The notes under the pieces were generated by a model. That model saw nothing but the letters and a program-made list of their open reading frames with translations, was not told the origin of the DNA and made no database searches. From positions 2,233 through 66,232 of the forward strand of contig CAZBFP010000010.1 of assembly GCA_964491265.1 (NCBI GenBank): DNA of 64,000 nt, given 5' to 3'. The stretch is from an uncultured Leptospirales bacterium (GTDB lineage Bacteria > Spirochaetota > UBA4802 > UBA5550). Shown in pieces: positions 12,234 to 63,771 of the stretch. The position numbers were made by a program, and so were the translations under genes. Positions within the stretch are counted from its first letter, which is position 1; every line of letters begins with the position of its first letter.

Positions 12234-15200
12234 ATGATTCAAACTACAGTTGCTGAGAAAAACCTTACCGAAGCTCGCCAAAAGCTTCTTGATTTAACAA
12301 TGAGAAATAAATTGTTAAATCATAGAGCATCAAAAAATAAATCTATAAGGGTTGTAGATGAAATTACACGAGAGATATATAACATTCTTGTTATCCAGCA
12401 TAAACAGATGGAGTTCAAATATAATCCTGAAACAGATAAAGTTGATGCATCAGAACTTTTATTTGAAGATGTTTCTCAAAATGAAGTGGACCAGCCCTCT
12501 ATCTGGAGTAATGAATCTAATAATGAAAAAGTTTCATCAAAACATCTTGATAAATATCTGCAAACAAATCTTGGGAATGAGGCATTGCAGAAAACCCTTT
12601 TCTTAATATACAACCAGGCAAAAACAGTAATGGAAGAACAGGGGTATACTGTGCTATTTCTGGCACTTGGATTTTTAGAATGGAAGGAAAGCAGCGATTC
12701 TATAAAACTAAGGCGATCTCCGCTTATATTGATTCCGGTGGAGTTGGAAAGAACTAATGTGCGTTCGGCGTTTAAATTAACTTGGACAGGTGATGAGATA
12801 TATTCTAATATTTCTCTACAGGCAAAACTTTCTGAGCAAAATGTCTCTATACCAAGTTTTGAAATGCCTGATGATAAACAGTATTTAGATCTTTACTTTG
12901 ATGAAATTATAGAAGCTTGTAAAAATCAAAAGGATTGGGGTATCACCCAGGATATTTATCTTGATTTCTTTAGTTTCACTAAATTTGTAATGTATAAAGA
13001 TTTGGACCCGATATCATGGATCGATAATCCTCCGCTTGATAGTCCTTTAATAAAAATGTTATTAGACCCGAACTATGTTCAGGAAGGAGGAGATAACTTT
13101 TTAGAAGAAGAGATTGATATAAAACTCTCTGCAAAGAGCACGTATAATATTATGGATGCAGATCCCTCACAGATTGTCGTTATCGAAAATGTTAAGCAAA
13201 AAATGAATATAGTTGTAGAAGGCCCTCCGGGGACAGGTAAATCTCAAACTATTACAAATTTAATCGCTGATCTTCTGGCAGAGGGAAAAAGTGTTCTTTT
13301 TGTAAGTGAAAAAATGGCGGCATTGGAAGTTGTTAAGAATAGACTTGATCTAGTTGGTTTAGGTGATTTTTGTCTTGAATTACATAGTCGTAAAACAAAT
13401 AAGAAAAATGTATTAGCAGAGTTGGAGCGTACATTCAAAAGACCTGTAGCATCTAAACTTGCCGAAGACACAAAATATCAAGAATTAGATGATATGAAGC
13501 TAAAGCTAAATAATTATGCCAGTGCACTCAAAGCTCAAGTCGGAAAGATAAAATGGACTCCATATAAATTGTTTTCACTGTATGAAGAAGCTGTTTGTTC
13601 TTTTGAAAAAAATGAGAAGGAATTCAAATCTGTGAAGATTGATGAACCTGAAGAAATTACTATAGAGGATTATCAGTCTGCAATTATGGCTTTAAATGAA
13701 TTTATGGATTTATTCGAACTAGTAGCTCCAATAGATTCTAATCCCTGGAAAGCATCTCGTCCCGACATAATATTGCCAGCAGATCAACAAAGAATAAAAG
13801 AAATAATTGATGATATTCAATCAAAGATAAAAGAGTTAAAGAAACAACTTGCGATAGTATCATCTGAATTTGCAATAATTAATCCGCCTAGCTTAAATGA
13901 ATTTGGAAATATTTTAGTACCTATTTTAGATTTATTGTCCAATTTCAAAAAGATTAATATTCAGGTATTGCTAAATAATTATAACGAATATGAGGCTTCA
14001 CAATTAATTCTTAATTTGAGGCAGTATAAAGTTTCTTTAGATAATATTAGAAATAGTTTTAATATAAACAAACTGGATGAAGATATATCAAAAATAGTTG
14101 ATGATTTTAAAACTCTATCAACCAGTTTCACACATCTATTCAAACCTTCCTATTATTGTAAACGAAAAGAATTTATATCATTATTTAGAAATCCTGTTAA
14201 AATTAAAAATGATTTGTTGATTCGAGAATTGGAAGGTGTGGTTTTATTTCAACAAAAGCGTGAAATGATCTACGGATATAAAGGGCTTGGTGATTCTTTG
14301 TTTGGTGAATACTGGAAAGGGATAGACTCTGATATTGATGAATTAGTTAATTTTGTTGCCTGGATTAAAAAATATCAAAATGCTTTAAATAATGGATGGA
14401 TTTTAAAACAAAACGCAGAGATTATGAATAACAATAAGTCAAATATTTCTTTAAATGAAACAGAAATAAATTTAAAAAATATTATCGTTCATATACAATC
14501 ACAATATTCAGAATTATCAGAAATTTTGAAATTGTCTGAATCCACGGAAGATTTTAATTCTATTGAATTTAGTGATCTGGAAAATAAGCTTAGTGATTGG
14601 ACAAGTAATTTGCATAGTTTACAAAAGTGGTCACATTATATAACCAAAAGAAGTGTTGTTTGTTGTAACATAGCGAAAGAATTGGTTCAGGAAATTGAAA
14701 ATGGTAAAATTGAAATTGAAGAAATAATTCCGGCCTTTAAGGGCAGTATTGCCAAAAGCCTGCTAGATTATTCTTTTAACCTTTATCCGGCTTTATCGGG
14801 TTTTCTTGGAGAAATTCATGATAAAAATATCAAACGCTTTTCTGAGTTAGATAATCAAATAATTCGTTTAAATCGACAAAGATTAGTTCATATTTTGTCT
14901 TCAAGAAGACCAACAATTTATAGCGGGAAATCAGATGGATCTGAAATGGGTATTTTGCAAGGGGAGTTTAATCGTAAAAGAGGGCATATGCCTATCCGAA
15001 AACTTCTATCAAATGCTGGTTCAATAATCCGAGGTGCAAAGCCTTGCTTTATGATGAGCCCATTATCTATTGCACAATTTTTATCACCAGCAAGTACACC
15101 TTTTGATGTAATAATTTTTGATGAAGCGAGCCAGGTCAAACCTGAAGATGCGTTAGGTGCTTTGATGCGAGGTCGCCAACTTGTAGTCATGGGAGACACA

Positions 15201-16988
15201 AAACAATTACCGCCTACAAGTTTTTTTGATCATATTGGTGAGGAGCTTGATTTTGATGAAGATGAGATGCTAATAACTGCTACGGAAAGTATACTTCATC
15301 AGTGCAAAAGGTGCTTCCCTGTAAAAATGTTGAAATGGCATTATAGGAGCAAACATGAATCATTAATTGCTGTATCAAATCAAGAATTCTATGAAAATGA
15401 ATTATTGATTTATCCGTCTTCCATAAAAACGGATAAGAATTTAGGCTTGTTTTTTAAATACCTTCCAGATACGATTTACGATCGTGGGAAAAGTTCAATT
15501 AATCGTTTGGAAGCAAGGGCAGTTGCCAAAGCCGCAATAGAGCATTATCAAAATAATCCCGATAAATCACTTGGTATTGGTACATTTAACATGAAACAGC
15601 AACAAGCTGTATTAGAAGAAATAGAACTGCAGCTAAAACATCATCCGGAAATGGAAGATTACTTTAAATCAAATGTCTCTGAGCATTTTTTTGTAAAAAA
15701 CCTAGAAACCATCCAAGGGGATGAACGAGATTTTATCATTATAAGTATCGGATTTGGTTATGATGCTGATAAAAAGTTGTCTGCAAATTTTGGTCCTCTT
15801 AATCACGAAGGCGGTGAAAGACGTTTAAATGTCTTGATAAGTCGTGCGCGGGAATGTTGTATTGTGTATTCAAACTTCAGGGCTGCAGACTTGAGTATAA
15901 GTGCGGAATCGTCAAAAGGTGTTAGATCTTTAAAAGTGTTTATAGATTATGCCGAGTCCCGAAATCTTCGGTCTACTGAACCAGTAAGTGAAGATACTGA
16001 CTCCCCATTTGAGGATTCTGTATATGATTTTCTATCTGATAATGGGCATATTGTTAGGAAACAGGTTGGTTGCGCTGGTTTCAGAATTGATTTAGCCATT
16101 GTTGACGAGAAAAACCCAGGTCGTTATCTACTTGCTATTGAATGTGATGGAGCGAAGTATCATAGCTCTCCTGTTGCAAGAGATCGGGATCGATTAAGAC
16201 AACAGATACTGGAAAAGTTAGGCTGGAATATTTATCGAATCTGGTCAACCGATTGGTATAGAAATAGACATATGGCCAAGCGGGCACTACTTAATTTTAT
16301 AGAGAAAATAAAGGTATCTAATCGATATAATACTTCAATGGATAATCAAACTTTACATGCAAGTGATTGTGAGATTAAATATAATGAACCTTTAATGACA
16401 GAAGATTATATCTCATTGATTGATTCTATACCTGAATATGAAATTTGTAATAGCCTGCTATTAAATACAAGTAGGCAAATACATGAAATAAATAGAACTT
16501 ACTTTTCATCCGCAATTGAAAGTATTGTTAATGTAGAAAGTCCTGTTCATATTGATGAAGTAATTAAAAGAATTCGGACATATTGGGGTTTGCAAAAAAC
16601 AGGGAGTCGTATCCGTGATCATTTGACTTTTGCCATAAAATATGCTACGAGAAATACTTCAATAGAACTTAGAAATAACTTTCTATATCTTAAGGATAAA
16701 CCAGTTATTGTTCGCAAGAGAACAAATGGTGAACCATCGCCGGATATTAACCTGATATGCGATGAAGAGATACAAGAAGCAATTTTACATGTATTAAAGA
16801 ATTTGTTTTCAACAGAGATCGATTCATTAGCTATTCAAGCTTCTCGTCTTTTTGGAATTCAAGCGACAAGAGCTATCACGCATAATCGAATAAAGGAAAA
16901 CATATTTTTACTACAAAAACAACATCGTATAGATATTGATTCAAAAAACACTGTAAGAATAATTTCATTTAGCTCAGGAATGAATTGA
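12234..16988 (+). CDS. 1584-aa multidomain protein: DUF4011-like N-terminus, SF1 Upf1/DNA2-like helicase (AAA_11/AAA_12), PD-(D/E)xK DUF559/Vsr-like nuclease-like domain, DUF3320-like tail; candidate defence helicase-nuclease
   Basis: Strong RBS AGAGGAAAG before the ATG. N-terminus has LLDLTMRNKLLN and FLALGFLEW...SPLILIPVEL (DUF4011 hallmarks as recalled). Walker A VVEGPPGTGKSQTI, Walker B VIIFDEASQ, then HYRS..ESLI..SN, QGDERDFIIIS and ERRLNVLISRARE helicase motifs. C-terminal GFRIDLAIVDE...LAIECDGAKYHSS...WNIYRIWSTDW matches the DUF559 restriction-endonuclease-like fold. Confidence 0.8.
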   Translation: MIQTTVAEKNLTEARQKLLDLTMRNKLLNHRASKNKSIRVVDEITREIYNILVIQHKQMEFKYNPETDKVDASELLFEDVSQNEVDQPSIWSNESNNEKVSSKHLDKYLQTNLGNEALQKTLFLIYNQAKTVMEEQGYTVLFLALGFLEWKESSDSIKLRRSPLILIPVELERTNVRSAFKLTWTGDEIYSNISLQAKLSEQNVSIPSFEMPDDKQYLDLYFDEIIEACKNQKDWGITQDIYLDFFSFTKFVMYKDLDPISWIDNPPLDSPLIKMLLDPNYVQEGGDNFLEEEIDIKLSAKSTYNIMDADPSQIVVIENVKQKMNIVVEGPPGTGKSQTITNLIADLLAEGKSVLFVSEKMAALEVVKNRLDLVGLGDFCLELHSRKTNKKNVLAELERTFKRPVASKLAEDTKYQELDDMKLKLNNYASALKAQVGKIKWTPYKLFSLYEEAVCSFEKNEKEFKSVKIDEPEEITIEDYQSAIMALNEFMDLFELVAPIDSNPWKASRPDIILPADQQRIKEIIDDIQSKIKELKKQLAIVSSEFAIINPPSLNEFGNILVPILDLLSNFKKINIQVLLNNYNEYEASQLILNLRQYKVSLDNIRNSFNINKLDEDISKIVDDFKTLSTSFTHLFKPSYYCKRKEFISLFRNPVKIKNDLLIRELEGVVLFQQKREMIYGYKGLGDSLFGEYWKGIDSDIDELVNFVAWIKKYQNALNNGWILKQNAEIMNNNKSNISLNETEINLKNIIVHIQSQYSELSEILKLSESTEDFNSIEFSDLENKLSDWTSNLHSLQKWSHYITKRSVVCCNIAKELVQEIENGKIEIEEIIPAFKGSIAKSLLDYSFNLYPALSGFLGEIHDKNIKRFSELDNQIIRLNRQRLVHILSSRRPTIYSGKSDGSEMGILQGEFNRKRGHMPIRKLLSNAGSIIRGAKPCFMMSPLSIAQFLSPASTPFDVIIFDEASQVKPEDALGALMRGRQLVVMGDTKQLPPTSFFDHIGEELDFDEDEMLITATESILHQCKRCFPVKMLKWHYRSKHESLIAVSNQEFYENELLIYPSSIKTDKNLGLFFKYLPDTIYDRGKSSINRLEARAVAKAAIEHYQNNPDKSLGIGTFNMKQQQAVLEEIELQLKHHPEMEDYFKSNVSEHFFVKNLETIQGDERDFIIISIGFGYDADKKLSANFGPLNHEGGERRLNVLISRARECCIVYSNFRAADLSISAESSKGVRSLKVFIDYAESRNLRSTEPVSEDTDSPFEDSVYDFLSDNGHIVRKQVGCAGFRIDLAIVDEKNPGRYLLAIECDGAKYHSSPVARDRDRLRQQILEKLGWNIYRIWSTDWYRNRHMAKRALLNFIEKIKVSNRYNTSMDNQTLHASDCEIKYNEPLMTEDYISLIDSIPEYEICNSLLLNTSRQIHEINRTYFSSAIESIVNVESPVHIDEVIKRIRTYWGLQKTGSRIRDHLTFAIKYATRNTSIELRNNFLYLKDKPVIVRKRTNGEPSPDINLICDEEIQEAILHVLKNLFSTEIDSLAIQASRLFGIQATRAITHNRIKENIFLLQKQHRIDIDSKNTVRIISFSSGMN

Positions 16989-18979: not shown

Positions 18980-21694
18980 CTATTTTTTTATTACTACAAA
19001 TAATCCAAGAGCAGCTGCATATGTGGCAAACCCTATGGCAAATGATGTGTTGAGGCCGTATGTAACATTAACAAAAACTGTTAAGACAACAGCCACAGTC
19101 ATTAGAGCGCCATTTATGCCGAACATGAGTGTGGCATATTCATCTGATATATCCTTTTTAATCTGGTCAAGAGCATGGGGGAAGGGGAGACCCATGAGAA
19201 ATGCCAGAGGGAAAATCATGGCTGATGATATAAAGAGCTTTGTAGTAAAAGCATATTTTGCCAGCCCATTGAATATGGCATCAGCAAAAAGAGCCTGGAA
19301 AAGAATAAGAAGAGGAATTGCCGCAATACACGCAATAAGTGTTCTCTTCCTGAAATTTCTGCTGAAGTAGCTTCCCAGTCCGCTGAAGAAAAGGAGCCCC
19401 CCGAGTATTACGATTGTAGAATATACTGGTGAGCCGATAAATCTCTGGTACTTCTGCATAAGAACAATTTCAACCATCATAAAACCGAGTCCCAGAAGTG
19501 AAAAGAAAACTGTATGGAGCGGAAGTTTGAATCCCTGCGATCTGTACCTGAATACAGTAAGGAGTATAACAGGAATAAAAAGAATACCCGCAAGTTTTAC
19601 AATCACATCAAGAAGTACGCGAACCTCTTTTTTGTTTTTATAAACATTGAAAGGGAAGGGCTTGTTGTCCCTTGTGGGTGTCAGGTCCACTTCATAGGGG
19701 AAGTCAATCTGATCCAGTATAGAGTGGACCCTTTCTTTATTGGCATCTGTTATCATATTGCGTTTTATGTAATATCTTTTCTGCTGGCTGCTGAATGTAA
19801 ACAGGCTTTTAAAGAATTCAGCATCTTCAGAATTTTTTATTAGCGGAAGCATATCCTCTTCAAATTCAGCCTGTCTGATTCTGTTTGGATATTCGGTCAT
19901 TTCATAAATAGGCTCAGGAGCATTGAATACTCTTTCAAACATATGTCCGGTTTTTATAGCAGGGTGAAGAGTAATTCCGGAACCGTATCTGGGAGCAATT
20001 ACATTATGATATCTGGCAAATGTGGCCAGTTCAGCCTGAGTAAAGGGGGATTTCTTTACAAGAACTGTCTGAAAGTTCTGGTTTGGTCCCCAGAAATCCC
20101 AGGAGTATATAAGAATATGCTGATCGGGGTTTTTTACACCCATCTCTTCAAGTGTGGCCCTGACAGTGTTGAGAAATTTGTAAAAGGCATATCTTGCCCT
20201 TGGAGTCTCAAGAATCTCCTCATAAACCAGCATCCCCTTGTCTGAAAGCTTATTCAGCATAAGTTTTGTGGCTTCCACAGTATGCAGGTATTCAGGCATA
20301 AGTGTGGCCATGGCCGGGTACTCAGGGTGAAGATTCATGAGTGTAATCATGTCATAAATTTCGGTGTTGCTTGTGAGGAAATATCTCCCCTCAGCTTCGT
20401 ATGCCTCAATACCTTTATAGGGGTAATTGGCAAATCTTGAGAAGTAGCCTTTTCCGTCCTCTTCAGTCATCAGGTTCATCAGCACAGGTGAAAATTCAAC
20501 ACCGCTGACCCTTGATCCGGGCTGTCTCTTAGCTGATTTAACCAGTCCGTCATAGGATAGGCCTATAATAAATATATTGGGGCTTTCAATATGCGGAACA
20601 CGAGGATCCCACAATGTACCGTTTGACTGAAGAGCAGTGTCGAGAGGTATACCGTTTGAACAGTAAATTATTGTTCTATCGTTAATATTGAAAAAGTCGA
20701 TTTTACCCATCAGGTCGTCCTGGGAATAGATGAGTTTCCAGTTGTTACCAGGCATATGTGAGTACCAGGTCTTTCTGCTTTCAACCTTGCTCATCTCCAC
20801 TTTATGGTTATAGGTGGTTACTTCAAGGAGTTTACTCAGCCAGGTAGAACCTTCCTTCTCAGCAGGTTTGTATGTCCTGTTTATATTGTAATTTAAATCA
20901 TAGCTTCTCCAGTGTCCAATATCGTGGAGAATATATTTTGCCCTTTGGATTCCATATTTGTCACCGGAATAGACATAGTTTTCACCATCTTTTTTGTAGC
21001 TTTTCTGCATAAACTGTCTGTCAAAGGTGTTTTTTATCTCTGGAATAACCTGCTGCTCATATTCTGTTTTTGTAAGTACTTCCGGAAGTTTAAGGTTATT
21101 CATCAGAATAACAGAAGTTCCATAGATAAGCACTATGGCTATTACTGCAGTGGCAGCTTTGGCAAGTATATGCCTGAATCCGAATGCAAGTACCAGAATA
21201 AATACCGCAGGGAAAAACATGAGCATAATCATTACGTCTCCCGATTTGTAGGGGTTAACCGCAAAAATCGGGAAAATAACACCAAGTGCTGATGCTGTAA
21301 GATTACCAAAATATATCTTGTATGAATTCGCCTTGGAGAAGAGCAATGAAACAATAATCGCTGCAAACATAAAGGGAAGAATCAGCAGATAGGGGTACTG
21401 AAAATATCCTATATTGATGATATTATAGTAGGATAATGGTATGGTTGCTGTGTAGAGCAGTGCAGCAACAAGCATAATTATATAGCTGTTGAATCGTGCA
21501 AGATAAAAGCTTATAAAACTTCCAAAGGCAATACTTATCATTGCTATTGAAATAACGAAGGTAGCTGTTAAATAGTTTGTTATTATAAGGAGCTTGTGAA
21601 CATAAAGGGTTTCAATTGCCATTATTGAAAATGAAAAAACGAACATGGCAAGATTGAAAATAATGCTTTGACTAAGGCTTTTCTTCTCTGTCAT
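18980..21694 (-). CDS. Large polytopic membrane protein (904 aa) with a central spermidine-synthase-like (class I MTase-fold) soluble domain
   Basis: Many TM helices at both ends. Central IFIIGLSYDGLV...VSGVEFSPVL...YDMITLMN resembles the spermidine synthase GGGDG / VEIDP / YDVII blocks. Weak, motif-level only. Confidence 0.4.
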   Translation of the reverse strand: MTEKKSLSQSIIFNLAMFVFSFSIMAIETLYVHKLLIITNYLTATFVISIAMISIAFGSFISFYLARFNSYIIMLVAALLYTATIPLSYYNIINIGYFQYPYLLILPFMFAAIIVSLLFSKANSYKIYFGNLTASALGVIFPIFAVNPYKSGDVMIMLMFFPAVFILVLAFGFRHILAKAATAVIAIVLIYGTSVILMNNLKLPEVLTKTEYEQQVIPEIKNTFDRQFMQKSYKKDGENYVYSGDKYGIQRAKYILHDIGHWRSYDLNYNINRTYKPAEKEGSTWLSKLLEVTTYNHKVEMSKVESRKTWYSHMPGNNWKLIYSQDDLMGKIDFFNINDRTIIYCSNGIPLDTALQSNGTLWDPRVPHIESPNIFIIGLSYDGLVKSAKRQPGSRVSGVEFSPVLMNLMTEEDGKGYFSRFANYPYKGIEAYEAEGRYFLTSNTEIYDMITLMNLHPEYPAMATLMPEYLHTVEATKLMLNKLSDKGMLVYEEILETPRARYAFYKFLNTVRATLEEMGVKNPDQHILIYSWDFWGPNQNFQTVLVKKSPFTQAELATFARYHNVIAPRYGSGITLHPAIKTGHMFERVFNAPEPIYEMTEYPNRIRQAEFEEDMLPLIKNSEDAEFFKSLFTFSSQQKRYYIKRNMITDANKERVHSILDQIDFPYEVDLTPTRDNKPFPFNVYKNKKEVRVLLDVIVKLAGILFIPVILLTVFRYRSQGFKLPLHTVFFSLLGLGFMMVEIVLMQKYQRFIGSPVYSTIVILGGLLFFSGLGSYFSRNFRKRTLIACIAAIPLLILFQALFADAIFNGLAKYAFTTKLFISSAMIFPLAFLMGLPFPHALDQIKKDISDEYATLMFGINGALMTVAVVLTVFVNVTYGLNTSFAIGFATYAAALGLFVVIKK

Positions 21695-29529: not shown

Positions 29530-29620
29530 AATACCTTTTTAATAATTTTTCGGTATTCCATGCCTTTAAGTTAAGAATTTATTGAGAATATACAGATTAA
29601 TTCAGAAATTATTTCTAAAT

Positions 29621-29690
29621 ATGTTTTTTAGTGCAATAATGATGTTTTCCATATCCCCGCCGTCTACGACGGCGGGGACAATAGATCATT
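29621..29690. repeat. GC-rich palindromic REP-like element B1 (core hairpin tccccgccgtc-tac-gacggcgggga at 29654-29678) with a conserved AT-rich leader
   Basis: Leader ttttttagtgcaataatgatgttt(t/c)ccatatccc is shared with the copy at 31080-31113. Confidence 0.6.
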
Positions 29691-29771
29691 GCCTGACAGT
29701 AATAAGTTTAGGAATAAATACTGCATTATTCTATTATTTTAAAGTAAAAAAAGCTTTGTCATTGAACAATT

Positions 29772-30101
29772 TTATTCAACTATGAGCTTCCCCGGTATCC
29801 CCGATAAGGTCAATTCCCTGAAAACAAAAAAAAGTTTTTTGACCCCTATCTTTATTTCCGGGATTTCATCGGTTTTAATCGCTTTTGATATCCACAATGT
29901 TATCGTCCCTGATTCAAATTTTATGTATTGTCCTATAACTTCGTCTATCGGCTTTCCCATGCATACTGCAGGGTTCCGGCTTGTAATCTGCCGGGATGGG
30001 CATCACCCTCCCGAGGAGCAGACAGATTCTATGTATATTGTGATATTTGAATCACCTTCCATAATGTAGGCAGCTGCGTCTTTTTCTATAGTAATTTTCA
30101 A
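29772..30101 (-). CDS. HesB/IscA-like small protein with an in-frame UGA (candidate selenoprotein), 110 codons
   Basis: Perfect SD GGAGGA 6 nt before a TTG start at 30101. N-terminus KITIEKDAAAYI and IYIESVCSSGG are IscA-like (ITLTDSAA..., GCSG). TGA at 30003-30005 lies between GG and CPS, giving C-x4-U-C. The frame stays open 44 codons past the UGA to a TAA stop. Confidence 0.45.
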
Positions 30102-30163
30102 AATAGATCCTCCTGGTAATCATTTCAGTTTTATTAAATGAATAGGCAATATTAACAACTTCA

Positions 30164-30470
30164 GCTCATTCCGGATTTTTGGGATACTAAGAAAGTACTT
30201 TTTTTACTTTTCCCCCCTGTCCCCCAAAGGGGGCACGAGTTATCTATTATTACTCTGAAAATATAATTGTTGCCACTTTGATAACTAATCCCTTTACATT
30301 GTTCCGCATATCTTTTGCAAGCTCAACAATATAAAGGATTTTTTAATACTTTGATTCACCAACTTGCTCAAGTTTTTATTTTACGTGCCCCCTTTGGGGG
30401 ACAGGGGGCTTACTCCAGAATATGTGGAAACAAACAATATTATTACTTTTCCCAAAAATCCGGAATGAGC
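30164..30470. mobile_element. 307-bp element with nested inverted repeats: perfect 21-bp outer IRs and 26-bp inner IRs. MITE-like or invertible segment
   Basis: Outer IRs gctcattccggatttttggga (30164-30184) and its reverse complement (30450-30470). Inner IRs cccccctgtcccccaaagggggcacg (30212-30237) and cgtgccccctttgggggacagggggc (30384-30409). Sits in the divergent promoter region between the UGA-containing gene and the Yippee-like gene. Confidence 0.55.
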
Positions 30471-30633: not shown

Positions 30634-31005
30634 TTGAATTATCAGCATAAGGAAAATCCCCTGGCCGGGATAGGTGATTCACCGGAACTGGCTGAAAAAG
30701 AGGATGAAAAAGTTATCTGCCGTAATTGTGCAGCCCCTATTACGGATAGAAATGAGATAATAGAGATTGAAGGTGCTGCATTCCATTATAAAAGAAATCC
30801 TGCAGGTATTTATTTCAGCATTGTCTGTTTCAGGTCTGCCAGGGGGTGCAGGAATGTGGGTTACTACACGTCAGAGTATTCCTGGTTCCCCGGTTATAAA
30901 TGGTGCATAGTAATATGCGGAGCCTGCTCAAGTCACCTGGGTTGGCAATATTCCGGTGCCGGTAATTTTTACGGATTAATTGCAGATCGCATTACCGGTT
31001 TTTAA
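30634..31005 (+). CDS. Yippee/CULT-like zinc-ribbon protein
   Basis: CRNCAAP...CGACSSHLGWQY resembles the Yippee/Mis18 and CULT pattern (CxxC...CxxCxxHLGW.Y) with aromatic residues nearby. Confidence 0.4.
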   Translation: MNYQHKENPLAGIGDSPELAEKEDEKVICRNCAAPITDRNEIIEIEGAAFHYKRNPAGIYFSIVCFRSARGCRNVGYYTSEYSWFPGYKWCIVICGACSSHLGWQYSGAGNFYGLIADRITGF

Positions 31006-31025: not shown

Positions 31026-31136
31026 GAATTACTGTAATTTCTGAAATATAAAAAATTACAGTAATTACTCCTGAAGATATTTTTTAGTGCAATAATGATG
31101 TTTCCCATATCCCAGCCGTCTACTGGTCGGGGATAT
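31026..31136. repeat. REP-like element B2: 14-bp inverted repeat (aattactgtaattt / aaattacagtaatt), the shared leader, and a degenerate GC hairpin (atatcccagccgtctactggtcggggatat)
   Basis: Leader 31080-31113 is nearly identical to B1 29625-29658. The hairpin carries substitutions that break complementarity. Confidence 0.5.
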
Positions 31137-41029: not shown

Positions 41030-42229
41030 ATGAAACTCTATAAGATAATATCAGCCTCTCTCATCCTTTTTCTTCTTTTTGTTCCGGAATTAAAATCGAG
41101 AGACTACATTAGAACCGGTACTGTTGAAGGGGTCAGGGAAAATAATTATATAACACTGATTTTTAAAGAAAAGCCTGAATTTGAATCATACTATATTTTA
41201 TTGGACGGGAATCGTCTCGGCACTGCCTTAATAACAGCAAGGATCGAAGATAATAAAGCACAATTCCGCTATCTTGCCCTATTCAGAGCTGCGGATAAAG
41301 AATCGGTCAAATTATTAAGGCCTGGCCTTGCAGCAGCTGTAATAAAGCCTGATAAAAGCATTGACAACAGGTATGAGAAAAAACCATATATTGAAAGAAT
41401 CGAATATAAAACAGTAATAATAAGTGCTGTTGATAAAAGAGAAATGGTGCTCATACCGGCCGGCAGATTTATTATGGGATCTTCAAAAGGGGATAAAGAT
41501 GAAGGACCGGAGAACAGCCATTTCCTTCCCGACTACTATATAGACAAATACGAGGTTTCAAATCGTGATTTCAAGGCCTTCCTTGATGATACAGCTGGTG
41601 AATATCCACCATACTGGGGGGAACACCTTGATTTGCAGAGGAATTTCAGGACTGAATTTTTCGCAGATCTTCCTGTGATTGTAACATATTATGAAGCGCT
41701 TGAGTATGCTTCATGGTGCGGCAAACGGCTTCCTCTGGAAAATGAGTGGGAAAAGGCTGCCAGGTTCCCGCTGCATCGTGATAAAAATAATATGGATGCA
41801 GTATATACATGGGGATATGAATTTCGTGAAGGTATTTCAAATAGTGCAGAATTATGGATGAATGAGGAAACAGGTGAAAACCTTAAAGAGCTGATAAAAA
41901 ACAAATATAGACTTGAAAAAATAGATAAAGGGTATATACCTGTAAATGTTCATGAGCCTGCTGCGGCTTCCTATTACGGAGTGGTACATATGGACGGCAA
42001 TGCTCTTGAATGGACCGACAGCTGGTATAGTGCTTATAAAAACAGTTATGTGAAAAATAAAAAATACGGAACACAGTATAAGGTAATCCGCGGGGGGAGT
42101 TACTTCCATTCTGCCGGAGAATCAAGGGTTACTGACAGAAAAATAGGCGGTATTCCTAATCTTAAAAGAGACAGGGTTGCCGGATTCAGATGTGTGAAAG
42201 ATGTGTCTGCTCAGGACAGATTAAATTAG
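41030..42229 (+). CDS. Formylglycine-generating-enzyme (SUMF1/FGE-sulfatase) domain protein, secreted
   Basis: Signal peptide. RFIMGS...YEVSNRDF...EWTDSWY...IRGGSYF pattern of the FGE-sulfatase domain. Confidence 0.65.
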   Translation: MKLYKIISASLILFLLFVPELKSRDYIRTGTVEGVRENNYITLIFKEKPEFESYYILLDGNRLGTALITARIEDNKAQFRYLALFRAADKESVKLLRPGLAAAVIKPDKSIDNRYEKKPYIERIEYKTVIISAVDKREMVLIPAGRFIMGSSKGDKDEGPENSHFLPDYYIDKYEVSNRDFKAFLDDTAGEYPPYWGEHLDLQRNFRTEFFADLPVIVTYYEALEYASWCGKRLPLENEWEKAARFPLHRDKNNMDAVYTWGYEFREGISNSAELWMNEETGENLKELIKNKYRLEKIDKGYIPVNVHEPAAASYYGVVHMDGNALEWTDSWYSAYKNSYVKNKKYGTQYKVIRGGSYFHSAGESRVTDRKIGGIPNLKRDRVAGFRCVKDVSAQDRLN

Positions 42230-45572: not shown

Positions 45573-47818
45573 TTTATTTCAACTGGATACTGTCGCGCTG
45601 GAAGATCTTTTTGATCTATATCCCTATAACAGCTGTTATTGTTGTTATACTATATGCAGGTTATATATATATTGAATGGATTTCCCAGAGAGAGATAGCT
45701 TTAAAAAAATTATCCGGATATAAACTTCTCATTGATAGAACTGAAGAGATGCAGAAGGGATACCCTTACACCAGAAGTGATGTGGAGGTAGGGGCTAAAG
45801 TCGTTGATATACCTACAAGAATTTATGACAGAAATAATGAAATTATAGGCGAGTTTTTCGAAGAGAAGAGAGAGATTGTTCCATTCGATTATATTCCCAA
45901 GTGGTTAATTAATGGAGTAATAGCAAGCGAGGACCGTGAGTTTTACAACCATAAAGGTATAAGTTATTCAGGGATTATAAGGGCATTTTTTAAAAATCTT
46001 ATCAATTTCAGGGTTGTTCAGGGGGGGAGTACAATAACCCAGCAGCTTGCCAAGGTCCTTTTTACTGATATGGAGAGAAATCTTAAAAGAAAAATTTATG
46101 AAGCCTACTGCGCTCTTGAGATTGAAAAGCATTATGATAAGCAGGACATTCTTTCAATGTATCTTAACCTTATATATTTCGGTAATGGTTCATATGGTGT
46201 TGAGTCCACATCAAAAATGTTCTTTGGTACATCAGTGAGAGAGCTGGATATAGTTGAATGTGCAATGATTGTTTCAACAATATCTAATCCTCTTGTTTAC
46301 TCACCTCTGTCCAATCTTGGTAATTCAGTCAGCAAAACAGGAAGAATTCTTCAGTCTCTCAGTGATGCCGGTTTTCTCACTAAAGAGCAGATTGATCCAC
46401 TTTATAAGGATTTTATAAAAAGATGGGATATAGAAGTCAGCGCTGACCAGAAGAGTGTAACTTCCAGAATCGGCAGTTTTTTATACAGTTCCTACAGGAT
46501 TAACAGGGCTCCTTTTTTTAATGAATCAATAAGAAGACTTCTTGTGGATAAATTTGGTGACGAAGCTGTAAAAAAAGGGGGCCTTTCAGTTTATACAACA
46601 ATTGACGCATCAAGTCAGGAGCTGGCAATGAAAAGCCTGCGTAATGGAATATCCTCTCAAAGAGATTATCATAAAAATTATGCAAAGAGAATTAAGAATA
46701 AAGCCGCTGCAGAAGCAGAGGAGGCTAAGGCTTCCGATATTGAAGGGGGTATGATTTCAATAAATCCCCATACTGGAGAAATATTATCCTACGCGGGTGG
46801 ATTTCAGTTTACTACCACTTCCCAGGTAGATAATGTCAGTCAGATCAGGAGGCAGCCCGGATCATCTATCAAGCCTCTTGTCTATGCATCTGCAATTGAG
46901 ACAAAAAAAATTACTCCATCTACCATGTTTGATGACAGGCCTGTAACTTTTGAAAAAGGTTATGCACCGCAGAATTATGACAAAAAATTTTACGGGAAAA
47001 TAATTGCTCGCCAGGCACTTGTGAAATCGCTTAACACTATTGCTGTAACAGTTCTGAATATTACCGGATATGACAAGGTCTTTTCCTATCTCCAGAAGGG
47101 TCTGGATATGAATGACAGTGATTTTAACAGAAGATTTATGAAAACATTATCCTTTGCACTTGGATCTTACGAGTTATCACCCTTTGAAAATGTGCAGATC
47201 CATGCGATGCTGATAAATCAGGGGAATTTTGTTATACCCTACGGGATAAAATATATTAAAGACTATAACGGTAATACTATATGGGATAATGAAAAGGAGA
47301 TACAGGAGCGGATCAATTCTAATAGAAGAAAATATAATAATATAATAGACCCGGCAGCTGCACGAATTTCATTGTCCATGCTTGAGGGCGTGAGAGAGCC
47401 TGGATCATCAATTCATTGGCTTCTTCGAAAATACGGCATTACTTTCCCCTGTGCAGGTAAAACAGGTACATCTTCCGATTTTATCGACGCCTGGTTTGTA
47501 GGTTATACAAGCGATCGTGTTACATCCGTATGGATTGGAAACAGGGCCGGGTCAGTATCATTAGGGCAGGGAAGGTCTGCAAGCGCTGTTTCCGCACCTG
47601 TGTGGGCCGAATACATTTCCGGGGTTTATAGAGAGGAAAAACCTGCTGGTTTTAATTCAGACATAGAGGGTATCACTTCAGAAACAATCTGTATGGAGTC
47701 GGGGAATGTAGCCGGACGCAACGGGGAGTGCCCGTCAAGCGCTGTGCAGTTTTTTTATTCAGGAACAGAACCGGGGAGGTTCTGTGAAATTCATGTTAAC
47801 AATCAGGGGAGTTTATGA
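45569..47818 (+). CDS. Class A penicillin-binding protein (PBP1A-like; glycosyltransferase plus transpeptidase)
   Basis: GT51 motifs EDREFYNHKGI and GGSTITQQLAK. Transpeptidase SxxK (GSSIKP) and KTGTS. Confidence 0.85.
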   Translation: MIYFNWILSRWKIFLIYIPITAVIVVILYAGYIYIEWISQREIALKKLSGYKLLIDRTEEMQKGYPYTRSDVEVGAKVVDIPTRIYDRNNEIIGEFFEEKREIVPFDYIPKWLINGVIASEDREFYNHKGISYSGIIRAFFKNLINFRVVQGGSTITQQLAKVLFTDMERNLKRKIYEAYCALEIEKHYDKQDILSMYLNLIYFGNGSYGVESTSKMFFGTSVRELDIVECAMIVSTISNPLVYSPLSNLGNSVSKTGRILQSLSDAGFLTKEQIDPLYKDFIKRWDIEVSADQKSVTSRIGSFLYSSYRINRAPFFNESIRRLLVDKFGDEAVKKGGLSVYTTIDASSQELAMKSLRNGISSQRDYHKNYAKRIKNKAAAEAEEAKASDIEGGMISINPHTGEILSYAGGFQFTTTSQVDNVSQIRRQPGSSIKPLVYASAIETKKITPSTMFDDRPVTFEKGYAPQNYDKKFYGKIIARQALVKSLNTIAVTVLNITGYDKVFSYLQKGLDMNDSDFNRRFMKTLSFALGSYELSPFENVQIHAMLINQGNFVIPYGIKYIKDYNGNTIWDNEKEIQERINSNRRKYNNIIDPAAARISLSMLEGVREPGSSIHWLLRKYGITFPCAGKTGTSSDFIDAWFVGYTSDRVTSVWIGNRAGSVSLGQGRSASAVSAPVWAEYISGVYREEKPAGFNSDIEGITSETICMESGNVAGRNGECPSSAVQFFYSGTEPGRFCEIHVNNQGSL

Positions 47819-48675
47819 TCCGCAACATATTAGTCTGTTTTTCTCTTGCTGTTCTGGCACTGTCCAATGTTTCATTCAGGTGGCCGCTGAATAATCCGGT
47901 TCTAACCTCAACATTCGGTGAGTCAAGGGGTGACCATTTCCATGACGGTATGGATTTTACAAGCTCCGACAGCCGGATTTTCCCTGTAAAAGATGGGAAG
48001 CTCCTTTATGCCTGGAACAGATCCCTTTTCCCTCTTGAAAATTACCGGGGTGGAGGAAATTATAAAGTAATTAAACATGATGATGACTATGTGTCTGTTT
48101 ATATGCATCTACAGGATGGAGAATCCCTTCAGAAAGAATATACTGAAAATGACGTAATCGGACATGCGGGTAATACAGGGCGATCCTACGGGAGCCATCT
48201 CCATTTTTCAATCTTAAACTGGAAACTCCGTTACTCGATCAATTCTTTTAAAGTAATGCCTGAATATGCTGATATAAAGGCTCCTGAAATATTATATTTT
48301 TATATAAGAATTGATGATCGCTATGTGAGGATAAATCCCGATTCCAGTATCCGTCTTACGCAGCATTATCCCCTGCTGGTGGAAATAAGAGATTCTGCCT
48401 CAGGAAGGGAGCGGCTCGGGATTTACAAAATGAAGGTTCAGTTTAACGGGAAGGAAATTCTTAATACGGAATATGACAGAATTGATTATTCAGAAAATGG
48501 TTTTACAGTAAGCGGAAGAGTCTTTGATGATCTTTTTGATGAGAGGGGTTACTATAAAATACCAGATTTAAAGTATCAGGAAGGGCTTAATACATTTATT
48601 GTGACAGCCCGTGATTTTAGTGGTAATACTGGAGAAAGAATTTTTAAAATCAATGTGAGCCTTGATACTGATTGA
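47815..48675 (+). CDS. M23-family peptidoglycan metalloendopeptidase
   Basis: HxxxD (HFHDGMDF) and HLHF (GSHLHFSI) zinc ligand motifs. Confidence 0.75.
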   Translation: MIRNILVCFSLAVLALSNVSFRWPLNNPVLTSTFGESRGDHFHDGMDFTSSDSRIFPVKDGKLLYAWNRSLFPLENYRGGGNYKVIKHDDDYVSVYMHLQDGESLQKEYTENDVIGHAGNTGRSYGSHLHFSILNWKLRYSINSFKVMPEYADIKAPEILYFYIRIDDRYVRINPDSSIRLTQHYPLLVEIRDSASGRERLGIYKMKVQFNGKEILNTEYDRIDYSENGFTVSGRVFDDLFDERGYYKIPDLKYQEGLNTFIVTARDFSGNTGERIFKINVSLDTD

Positions 48676-48711
48676 AAGATAAGAGCTGTTATAATTTCCG
48701 GAGGCCAGGTT

Positions 48712-49128
48712 TTGAATAATATATTGCCTTTATTAAGAAGAAAAAATAAAATAAAACAGAGAGAACTTGCAGTTGTTCTTGAAGTATCTCCTTCATATCT
48801 CTGTAAAGTGGAAAAGGGGCTGGTGGACCCTACTGATTCATTCAGGCAGTCATGTGCGGAATATTTTAATGAACAGATTTGCACCCTTTTTCCGGAAGAG
48901 GTGAAGAAAAAAAATGATATCTATCCTGATGAACAATCTGCTAACAATGTCTGGTCAGCAAGAAGAAGAAAAAATATAAAGCAGAACAAACTGGCAGAGC
49001 TTGTAGGGTGTTCCCCATCCTATCTCTCAAAAATTGAAAAGGGGAAACAGGTGCCAAATGAGAAGTTTAAAAAAAAATGCGCCAAGGTGCTGAAAATTAA
49101 AGAAGCGGAATTATTCCCGGAGAAATAA
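48712..49128 (+). CDS. Tandem double XRE-type HTH protein
   Basis: Two HTH_XRE repeats (KQRELAVVLEVSPSYLCKVEKG and KQNKLAELVGCSPSYLSKIEKG). Confidence 0.65.
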   Translation: MNNILPLLRRKNKIKQRELAVVLEVSPSYLCKVEKGLVDPTDSFRQSCAEYFNEQICTLFPEEVKKKNDIYPDEQSANNVWSARRRKNIKQNKLAELVGCSPSYLSKIEKGKQVPNEKFKKKCAKVLKIKEAELFPEK

Positions 49129-57446: not shown

Positions 57447-58559
57447 TTGCAGATTACAGATTTAAAAGAATGTCTCAGGGAAATGGTTTTTCTCAGGAAA
57501 AGGGCATCTGAAATGCTCGAATCAATGGGGATAGTTAAAATCAGGAAAAAACTCCATGAGCTTGAGCAGGAGATTCAGAAAGATGATATCTGGAAAGATC
57601 AGGCTACATTTACAAAGATTAACCAGGAGATCAGCGGAATTAAACGTAAGATCGAACCATGGGATACAATAATATCGGATATAACTGAATCTGTTGAACT
57701 CCTTGAAATGGCAATAGAGGAAGGGGATTCATCTATTGCTGAGGAAATTGCTAAAAACAGGGTTCTCTTTCAGGAGCGATTTGATGAACTTGAAACAAGA
57801 GAGCTTCTCTCCGGTAAAGATGATATCTGCAATGCATTTCTTACCATTCATCCAGGTGCAGGGGGGACAGAATCTCAGGACTGGGCAAGTATGATTTTAA
57901 GGATGTATACCAGGTGGTCAGAAAAAAATAATTATGCTGTTGATATTATTGATTATTCACCTGGTGATGAGGCTGGAATAAAGGATGCAACAATTTTAAT
58001 CAAGGGTGAGTATGCTTTTGGTTATCTTAAAGGTGAAACCGGTGTGCATAGACTTGTAAGAATATCACCTTTTGATTCAAATAAACGAAGGCATACATCT
58101 TTTGCTTCAGTTGAGGTAATACCTGAGCTCGAAGAGGATATCGAAATTGAGATTAATGAAAACGATTTGAAAATTGATACATATAGAGCATCGGGAGCCG
58201 GCGGTCAGCATATTAATAAAACAGATTCTGCTGTTAGAATAACCCATCTCCCCACAGGTATAGTAGTTCAGTGCCAGAATGAGCGATCGCAGCATAAAAA
58301 TAAAGCATTTGCCATGAAAGTACTCAAATCACGGCTTTATGAACTACAGAAAGAGCAGATGGATGAGAAAAAACAGGAGCTCAATGCAGAGAAAAAAGAT
58401 ATATCCTGGGGTAACCAGATCAGGTCCTATGTGTTCCAGCCCTATACCCTGGTAAAAGATCACAGAACCGGGGAGGAGACAGGGAGTGTTGATTATGTTT
58501 TTGATGGGGAATTGAACAGGTTCCTTTACGCTTACCTTAAAAACAGGAAGATGTCCTGA
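57447..58559 (+). CDS. prfB: Peptide chain release factor 2, encoded in a single frame
   Basis: SPF motif (VRISPFDS), GGQ motif (SGAGGQHINKT). N-terminus is contiguous with no programmed +1 frameshift site. TTG start after GGAG. Confidence 0.85.
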   Translation: MQITDLKECLREMVFLRKRASEMLESMGIVKIRKKLHELEQEIQKDDIWKDQATFTKINQEISGIKRKIEPWDTIISDITESVELLEMAIEEGDSSIAEEIAKNRVLFQERFDELETRELLSGKDDICNAFLTIHPGAGGTESQDWASMILRMYTRWSEKNNYAVDIIDYSPGDEAGIKDATILIKGEYAFGYLKGETGVHRLVRISPFDSNKRRHTSFASVEVIPELEEDIEIEINENDLKIDTYRASGAGGQHINKTDSAVRITHLPTGIVVQCQNERSQHKNKAFAMKVLKSRLYELQKEQMDEKKQELNAEKKDISWGNQIRSYVFQPYTLVKDHRTGEETGSVDYVFDGELNRFLYAYLKNRKMS

Positions 58560-63690: not shown

Positions 63691-63771
63691 ATGGGAAACA
63701 TCATTATTGAACTAAAAAATATCTTTAGGAATAATTACTTATTTTAAATATATAATTCTACAGGAGATCAT

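What the first reader, a model, noticed from the sequence alone, without database searches (positions are those of the whole stretch)
29772..30101. HesB/IscA-like gene with in-frame UGA, perfect Shine-Dalgarno site and downstream hairpin: candidate selenoprotein
On the minus strand, GGAGGA plus 6 nt precedes a TTG start. Translation gives MKITIEKDAAAYIMEGDSNITIYIESVCSSGG-[UGA]-CPSRQITSRNPAVCMGKP... and the frame then continues a further 44 codons to a TAA stop.

The N-terminus matches the IscA/HesB pattern (ITLTDSAA...GCSG). The UGA falls in a Cys-rich active-site-like context, C-x4-U-C.

Immediately 3' of the UGA the mRNA can form gcccau-cccggc-agauuacaa-gccgg-aacccugcaguaugc-auggga. This is a GC-rich hairpin in an otherwise AT-rich genome and is SECIS-like in position.

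HesB-like selenoproteins have been reported in anaerobes (from memory). Other genes in the window use TGA as a stop, so this is not global recoding.
Basis: partly seen in the sequence, partly recalled or inferred. Interest (0 to 1): 0.6.

Follow-up and report, generated by a model that had tools for sequence, protein, structure and literature searches.

The report
Unannotated CC/Se-family selenoprotein gene
This is very probably a real but unannotated selenoprotein gene, in which an in-frame UGA is read as selenocysteine, in an uncultured spirochaete; it belongs to a small selenoprotein family that is catalogued but functionally uncharacterised, so the find is correct and useful for annotation but not a new kind of thing.

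Summary
On the minus strand, 30101..29772 is one 109-codon frame (GGAGGA, 6 nt, TTG start) with a single in-frame TGA at 30005..30003.

Evidence that the TGA is a selenocysteine codon:
- Twelve diverged lineages carry TGA at exactly this codon. They include four Spirochaetota/Leptospirales genomes and a deltaproteobacterial MAG.
- Substitutions on both sides of the TGA are concentrated at third codon positions.
- One homolog (P0010) has TGT (Cys) at that codon.
- The protein passes NCBIfam NF041239, the "CC/Se motif family (seleno)protein", also Pfam PF28096. This family is listed among predicted prokaryotic selenoproteins.

Two conserved hairpins follow the UGA. The second (29973..29956, CCCUGCA-GUA-UGCA-U-GGG) is present in all 12 lineages, shows compensatory changes and meets the published bacterial SECIS criteria.

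UGA is otherwise a normal stop here: RF2 is encoded in the window and many genes end in TGA.

It is not a member of the classical HesB-like selenoprotein family (TIGR01911) or of Pfam IscA. However, AlphaFold models of two family members match only IscA/SufA structures, so "HesB-like" holds for the predicted fold only.

The Sec machinery could not be checked. Verdict: new member of a known kind.

The parts
30108..30113 (-). Shine-Dalgarno sequence GGAGGA, 6 nt upstream of the start codon
   Evidence: A purine-rich GAGG-type site at the same distance is kept in the orthologs.
29772..30101 (-). Complete coding sequence of a 109-residue CC/Se motif family selenoprotein (TTG start, U33, TAA stop)
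   Evidence: NF041239 scores 41.2 bits against a cutoff of 40, and all 8 aligned relatives hit it. Substitutions are third-position biased on both sides of the TGA.
30003..30005 (-). In-frame TGA, inferred selenocysteine codon (residue 33) in the motif G-G-U-C
   Evidence: TGA sits at the homologous codon in L009, L010, L015, L021-L024, L013, L014, L017 and L018/L020. The Cys form P0010 has TGT there.
29976..29994 (-). Hairpin 1: CCGGC, 9-nt loop AGAUUACAA, GCCGG (nt 12-30 counted from the U of UGA)
   Evidence: 92.7% of cells pair; the outer pair is C-G in 4 sequences, A-U in 3 and G-C in 1. It is absent in L014, which has a 4-codon deletion. Only 13 nt lie between the UGA and its loop, outside the 16-37 nt of the SECIS model.
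29956..29973 (-). Hairpin 2, the best SECIS candidate: CCCUGCA, loop GUA, UGCA, bulged U, GGG (nt 33-50 from the U of UGA; loop at 29964..29966)
   Evidence: Present in all 12 lineages. 96.4% of cells pair, two pairs show compensatory changes, and loop bases G and U are invariant. MFE is -7.7 kcal/mol. 36 nt lie between the UGA and the loop. It meets the criteria in the Fig. 2 legend of PMC13188914.
29772..29960 (-). The 62-aa fragment (MGKP...LIVE) that public gene calls report in place of the full gene
   Evidence: P0001 is 100% identical and is the only form of this protein in the 5.8-billion protein set.

Best explanation
The region encodes one 109-residue protein of the CC/Se motif family (NCBIfam NF041239, Pfam PF28096). 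Codon 33 (UGA) is decoded as selenocysteine.

Shown here: the UGA and the reading frame on both sides are conserved and under purifying selection across distant lineages. A homolog carries Cys at that codon. The mRNA just downstream carries two conserved hairpins.

Inferred: the second hairpin (7 bp with a bulged U and a 3-nt loop G-U-N, starting 36 nt after the UGA) is the SECIS. It would recruit SelB carrying Sec-tRNA(Sec) to the ribosome paused at the UGA. Hairpin 1 may act as a spacer or an auxiliary element.

Also inferred: the product is a small single-domain protein with an IscA/SufA-like fold. The Sec-Cys dyad (G-G-U-C) sits in the flexible loop after the second beta-strand. From memory, this is the loop that holds the first cluster-ligand Cys in A-type carriers. 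The protein lacks the C-terminal Cys-x-Cys ligands of those carriers.

The most likely chemistry is a vicinal selenenylsulfide/selenolate-thiol redox or chalcogen/metal-handling site. Its physiological partner is unknown.
For: - Anatomy of the gene.
- Family: NF041239 scores 41.2 bits against a cutoff of 40. All 8 relatives hit it, best E = 1.4e-20. PF28096 CC_Se_fam is precomputed on P0005, P0008, P0007 and P0010. The family is listed as a predicted selenoprotein in PMC13188914.
- UGA at the same codon in 12 lineages. Four are GTDB genomes labelled Leptospirales or Spirochaetota.
- The Cys form P0010 has TGT at that codon.
- Codon-position differences against L009 are 4/2/14 upstream of the UGA and 5/4/21 downstream. 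Only 3 of 17 third positions differ in the SECIS stretch.
- Hairpin covariation.
- SECIS criteria: applied to the folds.
- RF2 is present and TGA is used as a stop.
- The TGA is identical in 8 assemblies.
- Fold: AlphaFold models of P0010 (pLDDT 86.6) and P0005 (pLDDT 82.1) match only IscA/SufA/HesB-type entries with Foldseek probability near 1 and TM about 0.5.
Against: - No selA, selB, selD or tRNA-Sec was found in the 64-kb window, the adjacent 10 kb or any fetched locus. The rest of the genome could not be read, so the organism's ability to decode Sec is unproven.
- Hairpin stability is not better than shuffles.
- Covariation rests on two variable pairs among related sequences.
- Hairpin 2 lies near the upper limit of the allowed UGA-to-loop spacing (36 nt, within 16-37).
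- The Cys form keeps a similar lower stem (-9.9 kcal/mol), so loss of the SECIS in the Cys form could not be shown.
- The NF041239 score is only just above its cutoff, and was obtained with C substituted for U.
- The fold assignment rests on models of two relatives built from a 9-row alignment, not on the window protein itself. There is no sequence-profile link to IscA.
Confidence: 0.88

Rival explanations
1. The UGA is read through without selenocysteine. A near-cognate or suppressor tRNA would insert Trp, Cys or Gly, or the organism would recode UGA more widely. The conserved hairpins would then stimulate read-through rather than bind SelB.
For: Sec machinery was not found in any sequence available. 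Two public gene calls translate the homologous TGA as W.
Against: Those W residues come from contigs translated with code 4; the DNA has TGA. The window encodes RF2 (516 bits) and 18 of 50 long ORFs end in TGA, so UGA is a stop in this genome. The aligned residue in the non-UGA homolog is Cys, the classical Sec/Cys pair. The family is catalogued as a selenoprotein family. Hairpin 2 fits the SECIS loop rule G-[G/U].
Confidence: 0.06
2. There are two separate small genes, as public gene callers have it: a 32-codon upstream ORF ending at TGA, and an independent 62-residue protein starting at ATG 29960.
For: All databases hold only the 62-aa (or 57-71-aa) C-terminal fragment.
Against: The 15 codons between the TGA and that ATG (CPSRQITSRNPAVC) are the most conserved part of the protein in all lineages, and no Shine-Dalgarno site precedes the ATG. 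In L015/L021 that Met is Arg and in L013 it is Thr, so those lineages have no start there. The Cys form P0010 is one continuous 108-aa ORF. The NF041239 profile aligns across residues 1-101.
Confidence: 0.03
3. It is a decaying pseudogene of a Cys-containing gene, inactivated by a TGT/TGC to TGA nonsense mutation.
For: A single base change converts Cys TGT/TGC to TGA, and a Cys form exists.
Against: The same TGA is kept in 12 lineages down to about 35% protein identity. There are no frameshifts or further stops, and substitutions are third-position biased both before and after it. The start codon and RBS are conserved.
Confidence: 0.02

Closest known systems
CC/Se motif family (seleno)protein: NCBIfam NF041239 'Moor_selen_rel', Pfam PF28096 CC_Se_fam. 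First listed as a hypothetical selenoprotein predicted in Moorella thermoacetica (table in PMC13188914).
   Same: The profile match passes the curated cutoff and spans residues 1-101. The protein is about 100-110 aa with a single domain. An adjacent Sec/Cys-Cys dyad sits near residue 33, and both Sec and Cys forms exist. Function is unknown in both cases.
   Different: The window protein scores only just above the cutoff and comes from a Leptospirales-like spirochaete lineage. Its dyad order is U-C, and relatives show U-A and U-U. The review table gives the family motif as CxxU, whereas here the upstream Cys is C-x4-U. In public data this ortholog exists only as a truncated 62-aa call.
HesB-like selenoprotein (TIGR01911, motif UxGP) and A-type Fe-S carriers IscA/SufA/HesB (Pfam PF01521)
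   Same: Small size. The N-terminal beta-alpha start (M-K-I-T-I-x-x-x-A) is similar. The predicted fold of two family members matches IscA/SufA crystal structures only (TM about 0.5, Foldseek probability about 1). Sec lies in a Gly-rich loop after the second beta-strand; from memory, this is where the first cluster-ligand Cys of IscA lies, and it was not shown by a residue-level superposition.
   Different: No match to TIGR01911 or PF01521 at E<=1. There is no UxGP motif (here U-C-P-S) and no C-terminal C-x-C cluster ligands.
Bacterial SECIS elements (consensus model of Zhang and Gladyshev 2005, as summarised in PMC13188914; E. coli fdhF as prototype)
   Same: A stem-loop lies inside the coding sequence just 3' of the UGA. 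It has a 3-nt apical loop starting with G-U, a 7-bp stem with a bulged U, a spacing of 36 nt (allowed 16-37) and an MFE of -7.7 kcal/mol (limit -7.5). From memory, the upper stem UGC(A/G)-GU(A/C)-UGCA resembles the fdhF apical stem UGCAGGUCUGCA.
   Different: An extra conserved hairpin sits between the UGA and the SECIS-like hairpin. The bulged U is on the 3' side. Spacing is at the long end of the range. SelB binding is untested.

Membership tests
CC/Se motif family (NF041239 / PF28096) | Whole-protein score at or above the curated NCBIfam cutoff | tested here: met
   41.2 bits against a cutoff of 40, E = 1.3e-10, profile positions 1-90 of 91, with C substituted for U. All 8 aligned relatives match, best E = 1.4e-20. 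The margin for the window protein is small.
CC/Se motif family (NF041239 / PF28096) | Adjacent Cys-Cys dyad in which one position can be Sec | tested here: met
   G-G-U-C in the window. Relatives show U-C, U-A and U-U, and C-C in P0010.
CC/Se motif family (NF041239 / PF28096) | Pfam PF28096 match | not testable with these tools
   The local Pfam copy lacks PF28096: P0005 and P0010, which carry it as a precomputed hit, gave no hit. The precomputed hits are on relatives only.
Bacterial selenoprotein gene (Sec-UGA recoding) | In-frame UGA conserved among orthologs, with coding constraint on both sides | tested here: met
   12 lineages. Third-position bias is seen upstream and downstream of the UGA.
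Bacterial selenoprotein gene (Sec-UGA recoding) | A homolog with Cys aligned to the UGA | tested here: met
   P0010 / L025 has TGT at the homologous codon. Only one Cys form was found.
Bacterial selenoprotein gene (Sec-UGA recoding) | [quoted passage not shown] | tested here: met
   Hairpin 2 has loop GUA, 7 bp, 36 nt spacing and -7.7 kcal/mol. It is conserved in 12 of 12 lineages with compensatory changes. The criteria were applied by hand; bSECISearch itself was not run.
Bacterial selenoprotein gene (Sec-UGA recoding) | selA, selB, selC (tRNA-Sec) and selD present in the same genome | not testable with these tools
   None in the window, in 10 kb beyond it, or in the fetched loci.
Bacterial selenoprotein gene (Sec-UGA recoding) | Selenium actually incorporated at the UGA position | not testable with these tools
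   Needs 75Se labelling or mass spectrometry.
HesB-like selenoprotein (TIGR01911) | Match to the TIGR01911 profile and the UxGP motif | tested here: not met
   No TIGR01911 hit at E<=1. The motif here is U-C-P-S. The UxGP motif is taken from PMC13188914.
A-type Fe-S carrier (IscA/SufA/HesB, PF01521) | Sequence-profile match and the three Cys ligands, including the C-terminal C-x-C | tested here: not met
   No Pfam hit at E<=1. No PDB sequence hit at E<=10. No C-terminal C-x-C in any member.
A-type Fe-S carrier (IscA/SufA/HesB, PF01521) | IscA/SufA three-dimensional fold | tested here: inconclusive

The most novel reading that the evidence does not exclude
The CC/Se motif family may be a very diverged branch of the HesB/IscA/SufA fold. 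It would have dropped the C-terminal cluster ligands and kept only a Sec(Cys)-Cys dyad in the loop that, from memory, holds the first cluster-ligand Cys of IscA. That would make it a second, independent HesB-type selenoprotein lineage with a different chemistry: a vicinal selenenylsulfide, or selenium/sulfur or metal relay. Its presence in several Leptospirales-like and other uncultured Spirochaetota would mean the Sec-decoding trait is more widespread in free-living spirochaetes than the classical Treponema denticola case.
Probability: 0.4. Interest if true: 0.4.

Novelty: new member of a known kind. Interest (0 to 1): 0.3.

Why it matters
Practically, every public gene call for this protein and most of its relatives is wrong. 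They are truncated to a 57-71-aa C-terminal fragment, or translated with code 4 to give Trp. The family is therefore almost invisible in protein databases: only 6 significant hits among 1.84 billion representatives.

Correct annotation does three things:
- it adds a selenoprotein to an uncultured spirochaete lineage;
- it implies a Sec-decoding trait in that lineage;
- it supplies a set of 12 aligned UGA/SECIS contexts for a family known only from lists.

The predicted IscA/SufA-like fold gives a first testable idea for the function of the CC/Se family. None of this changes what is known about how Sec recoding works.

Tried and rejected
- Rfam. Nothing at gathering threshold except tRNA-Arg. 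In 29700-30300 only chance-level hits (E>3) appeared. No SECIS family matched.
- Second selenoprotein in the window. A scan for TAA/TAG-delimited frames containing TGA gave one candidate, 47815..49128. It proved to be two separate genes, an M23 peptidase ending in TGA and an HTH protein starting at 48712.
I searched with the 76 residues after the UGA instead.
- The search for related loci with the 8-sequence alignment failed for lack of a conserved stretch. The post-UGA alignment A4 worked.
- Sequence link to IscA/HesB. The PDB profile search and hhalign were both negative.
- Loss of the SECIS in the Cys form is inconclusive. Two upper-stem pairs are broken, but a hairpin of -9.9 kcal/mol remains.
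- Sec machinery. ARAGORN on the window and 13 loci, NCBIfam on 27 window ORFs, and 10 kb beyond the window end found nothing. This is uninformative for a genome of several Mb.
- The weak 'SenA selenoneine synthase' hit of ORF 41030..42229 (60.8 bits against a cutoff of 420) overlaps stronger partial hits to EgtB and GldK, all far below cutoff, so it looks like shared-domain similarity, not evidence of selenium metabolism.
- No conserved gene neighbourhood across distant lineages. Synteny holds only within the Leptospirales-like group.

Full report
**1. The observation**

Read on the minus strand, the window has:
- GGAGGA at 30113..30108, a 6-nt spacer and TTG at 30101..30099;
- 32 sense codons (MKITIEKDAAAYIMEGDSNITIYIESVCSSGG);
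- TGA at 30005..30003;
- 76 further sense codons (CPSRQITSRNPAVCMGKPIDEV...GKLIVE);
- TAA at 29774..29772.

The one slip is the count of codons after '...MGKP', which is 58, not 44.

The 47 nt after the TGA are 59.6% G+C. The rest of the gene and the window are about 37%.

The identical 330-nt gene, TGA included, occurs in seven independent metagenome assemblies. An eighth encodes the same protein with the TGA intact. The stop codon is therefore not an assembly or sequencing error.

**2. Is the TGA a stop, a lesion or a sense codon?**

Public protein sets hold only the C-terminal fragment that starts at the ATG downstream of the TGA (P0001-P0003). I fetched the DNA around these fragments and around more distant relatives. 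Those relatives came from an exhaustive HMMER search with the post-UGA part and from a scan of 185,579 species genomes.

In every case the frame is open upstream to a start codon preceded by a purine-rich (GAGG-type) ribosome-binding site. In every case a TGA sits at exactly the homologous codon:
- L009, L010/11/12 and L015;
- L021, an uncultured Leptospirales MAG;
- L022, the 4.9-Mb metagenome chromosome OW818666.1;
- L023, Spirochaetae bacterium HGW-Spirochaetae-5;
- L024, a Spirochaetota MAG (for L021-L024);
- L013, L014 and L017;
- L018/L020, whose protein P0007 is named as from a Deltaproteobacteria bacterium.

That makes twelve lineages, down to about 35% protein identity.

Two database proteins, P0005 and P0008, show W at this position. 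Their DNA has TGA, so those contigs were translated with code 4.

One homolog, P0010, is a continuous 108-aa ORF with GG-C-C. Its DNA has TGT at that codon. This is the classical Sec/Cys pair.

Differences between the window and L009 fall 4/2/14 on codon positions 1/2/3 in the 32 codons before the TGA, and 5/4/21 in codons 51-92. Both halves are therefore translated and under purifying selection.

These results exclude a pseudogene. They also exclude the two-gene reading. The stretch between the TGA and the annotated ATG (CPSRQITSRNPAVC) is the best-conserved part of the protein. In L015/L021 the 'start' Met is Arg, and in L013 it is Thr.

**3. Not global recoding**

The window encodes release factor 2 (57447..58559; TIGR00020, 516 bits). 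Of the 50 long ORFs, 18 end in TGA.

**4. Family**

With C substituted for U, the protein passes NCBIfam NF041239 'CC/Se motif family (seleno)protein'. It scores 41.2 bits against a cutoff of 40 across residues 1-101. All eight aligned relatives match, the best at E = 1.4e-20.

Relatives carry the precomputed Pfam family PF28096 CC_Se_fam. The local Pfam copy lacks that model.

[quoted passage not shown] It is the only paper in the library that names the family. No function is known.

The classical HesB-like selenoprotein (TIGR01911, motif UxGP) and Pfam HesB/IscA do not match at E<=1.

**5. The RNA element**

RNAfold and RNAalifold give two adjacent hairpins after the UGA.

*Hairpin 1* (nt 12-30 counted from the U of UGA; window 29994..29976) is CCGGC, a 9-nt loop, then GCCGG.
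- It is kept in 11 of 12 lineages.
- Its outer pair is C-G in 4 sequences, A-U in 3, G-C in 1 and mismatched in 3.
- It is deleted in L014.
- Its loop starts only 13 nt after the UGA.

*Hairpin 2* (nt 33-50; window 29973..29956) is CCCUGCA, loop GUA, UGCA, a bulged U, then GGG.
- It is present in all 12 lineages, and 96.4% of cells pair.
- The loop-closing pair is A-U in 5 sequences, G-U in 3 and G-C in 3.
- One U-A pair has become G-C in L014.
- Loop bases G and U are invariant.
- Some of these changes alter the amino acid (Cys to Arg, Met to Arg in L015) while keeping the pairing.

Hairpin 2 meets every criterion of the published bacterial SECIS model: a loop of 3-9 nt with G then G/U at its start, a stem of 4-16 bp, 16-37 nt between the UGA and the loop (here 36), and MFE <= -7.5 (here -7.7). 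The criteria come from PMC13188914 and the fold.

Third-position divergence in codons 34-50 is 3 of 17. It is 14 of 32 and 21 of 42 in the flanking parts. That is the pattern expected for an RNA constraint overlapping the coding sequence.

Caveats:
- The folding energy of the 65-nt stretch is not better than shuffles (z = -1.28).
- Covariation rests on few variable pairs among related sequences.
- The single Cys form still folds into a similar lower stem.

It pairs in 83.6% of cells, shows no compensatory change, and has one pair broken in 6 of 11 sequences.

**6. Fold and likely chemistry**

I therefore modelled two relatives from a 9-row alignment that included both window fragments:
- P0010, the Cys form: pLDDT 86.6, pTM 0.74;
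- P0005, a Sec form: pLDDT 82.1.

Foldseek against the PDB returned, for both models, only A-type Fe-S carrier structures at probability 0.97-1.0 and TM 0.4-0.54. These are SufA 2d2a, IscA 1r94/1x0g/1s98, HI1723 2apn and AQ_1857 1nwb. Probability then drops sharply (0.85 for one unrelated entry and 0.44 for 2p2e, then 0.07 or less).

No sequence-level link exists.

The U-C dyad lies in the low-confidence Gly-rich loop after the second beta-strand. From my knowledge of IscA, this is the loop that holds its first cluster ligand (Cys35). That correspondence is an inference, not a measured superposition.

The C-terminal C-x-C ligands of A-type carriers are absent. Across the family only G32, U/C33, P44-A45-V46, P51 and a few others are invariant.

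I therefore propose a redox or chalcogen/metal-handling site formed by the vicinal Sec-Cys pair on an IscA-like scaffold. The chemistry is inferred only.

**7. Context**

In the Leptospirales-like group the neighbourhood is conserved. The gene sits between:
- a divergently oriented 123-aa Yippee/Mis18-like zinc-finger protein and an OmpR-type regulator on one side;
- a TPR protein, a NUDIX hydrolase and an asparaginase on the other.

More distant members have unrelated neighbours. Gene context therefore does not point to a pathway.

**8. What could not be done**

No selA, selB, selD or tRNA-Sec lies in the window, in the next 10 kb or in any fetched locus. This says nothing about a genome of several Mb that the tools cannot read.

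**9. Verdict**

This is a genuine but mis-annotated selenoprotein gene of the known, uncharacterised CC/Se motif family, in an uncultured spirochaete, with a conserved SECIS-like hairpin.

The family assignment needs refining (CC/Se, not TIGR01911 HesB-like; HesB-like only in predicted fold). The SECIS also needs re-drawing around hairpin 2.

Novelty: new member of a known kind. Interest is modest.

Noticed in passing
window 30634..31005 (+): A 123-aa protein with two CxxC pairs and a weak Yippee/Mis18 match (PF03226, 22 bits, below cutoff). It is transcribed divergently from the selenoprotein gene. It is a conserved neighbour in the same-species contigs and in L015 (57% ortholog). NCBIfam has no family for it.
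   Followed up: partly
window 29590..29667, 31046..31123 and 63696..63719 (-): A dispersed repeat of about 78 nt (82% identity between the first two copies; a core of 24 nt is found three times, against 0 expected). The first copy adjoins a G+C-rich palindrome (CCCCGCCGTC-GTAG-ACGGCGGGG). Two copies bracket the selenoprotein and Yippee-like gene pair. It is possibly a REP/MITE-like element.
   Followed up: partly
window 30164..30237 and 30384..30470: Perfect inverted repeats (25-nt and 21-nt arms) in the 530-nt intergenic region upstream of the selenoprotein gene. In L002 the second arm has no exact match (one copy by exact search). Function unknown.
   Followed up: partly
L014 5184..5189: A distant family member has two adjacent TGA codons (…SIQG-U-U-SG…), followed 21-24 nt later by the same hairpin 2 with a compensatory U-A to G-C change. 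It is a possible Sec-Sec (UU) form of the CC/Se dyad. The gene call in the database reads both codons as W.
   Followed up: partly
P0005 (L013) and P0008 (L014): Public protein records of family members carry Trp where the DNA has TGA, because the contigs were translated with genetic code 4. Most other members exist only as 57-71-aa C-terminal fragments. Database annotation of this family is systematically wrong.
   Followed up: yes
window 12234..16988 (+): A 1584-aa protein combining DUF4011, SF1 helicase domains (AAA_11/AAA_12), an MTES_1575 restriction-endonuclease-like domain and DUF3320. This is a large helicase-nuclease of defence-like architecture.
   Followed up: no
window 57447..58559 (+): prfB (release factor 2) is encoded as a single uninterrupted ORF with a TTG start. 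No +1 frameshift site is needed to read it.
   Followed up: no
window 41030..42229 (+): A 399-aa protein with partial hits, all far below cutoff, to EgtB, SenA (selenoneine synthase, 60.8 bits against a cutoff of 420) and GldK. This looks like shared-domain similarity (probably an FGE-sulfatase-type domain, from memory) and gives no evidence of a selenium link.
   Followed up: no
window 18980..21694 (-): A 904-aa ORF with no Pfam or NCBIfam match at all. It is conserved next to the branched-chain amino-acid ABC transporter genes in the related contigs.
   Followed up: no
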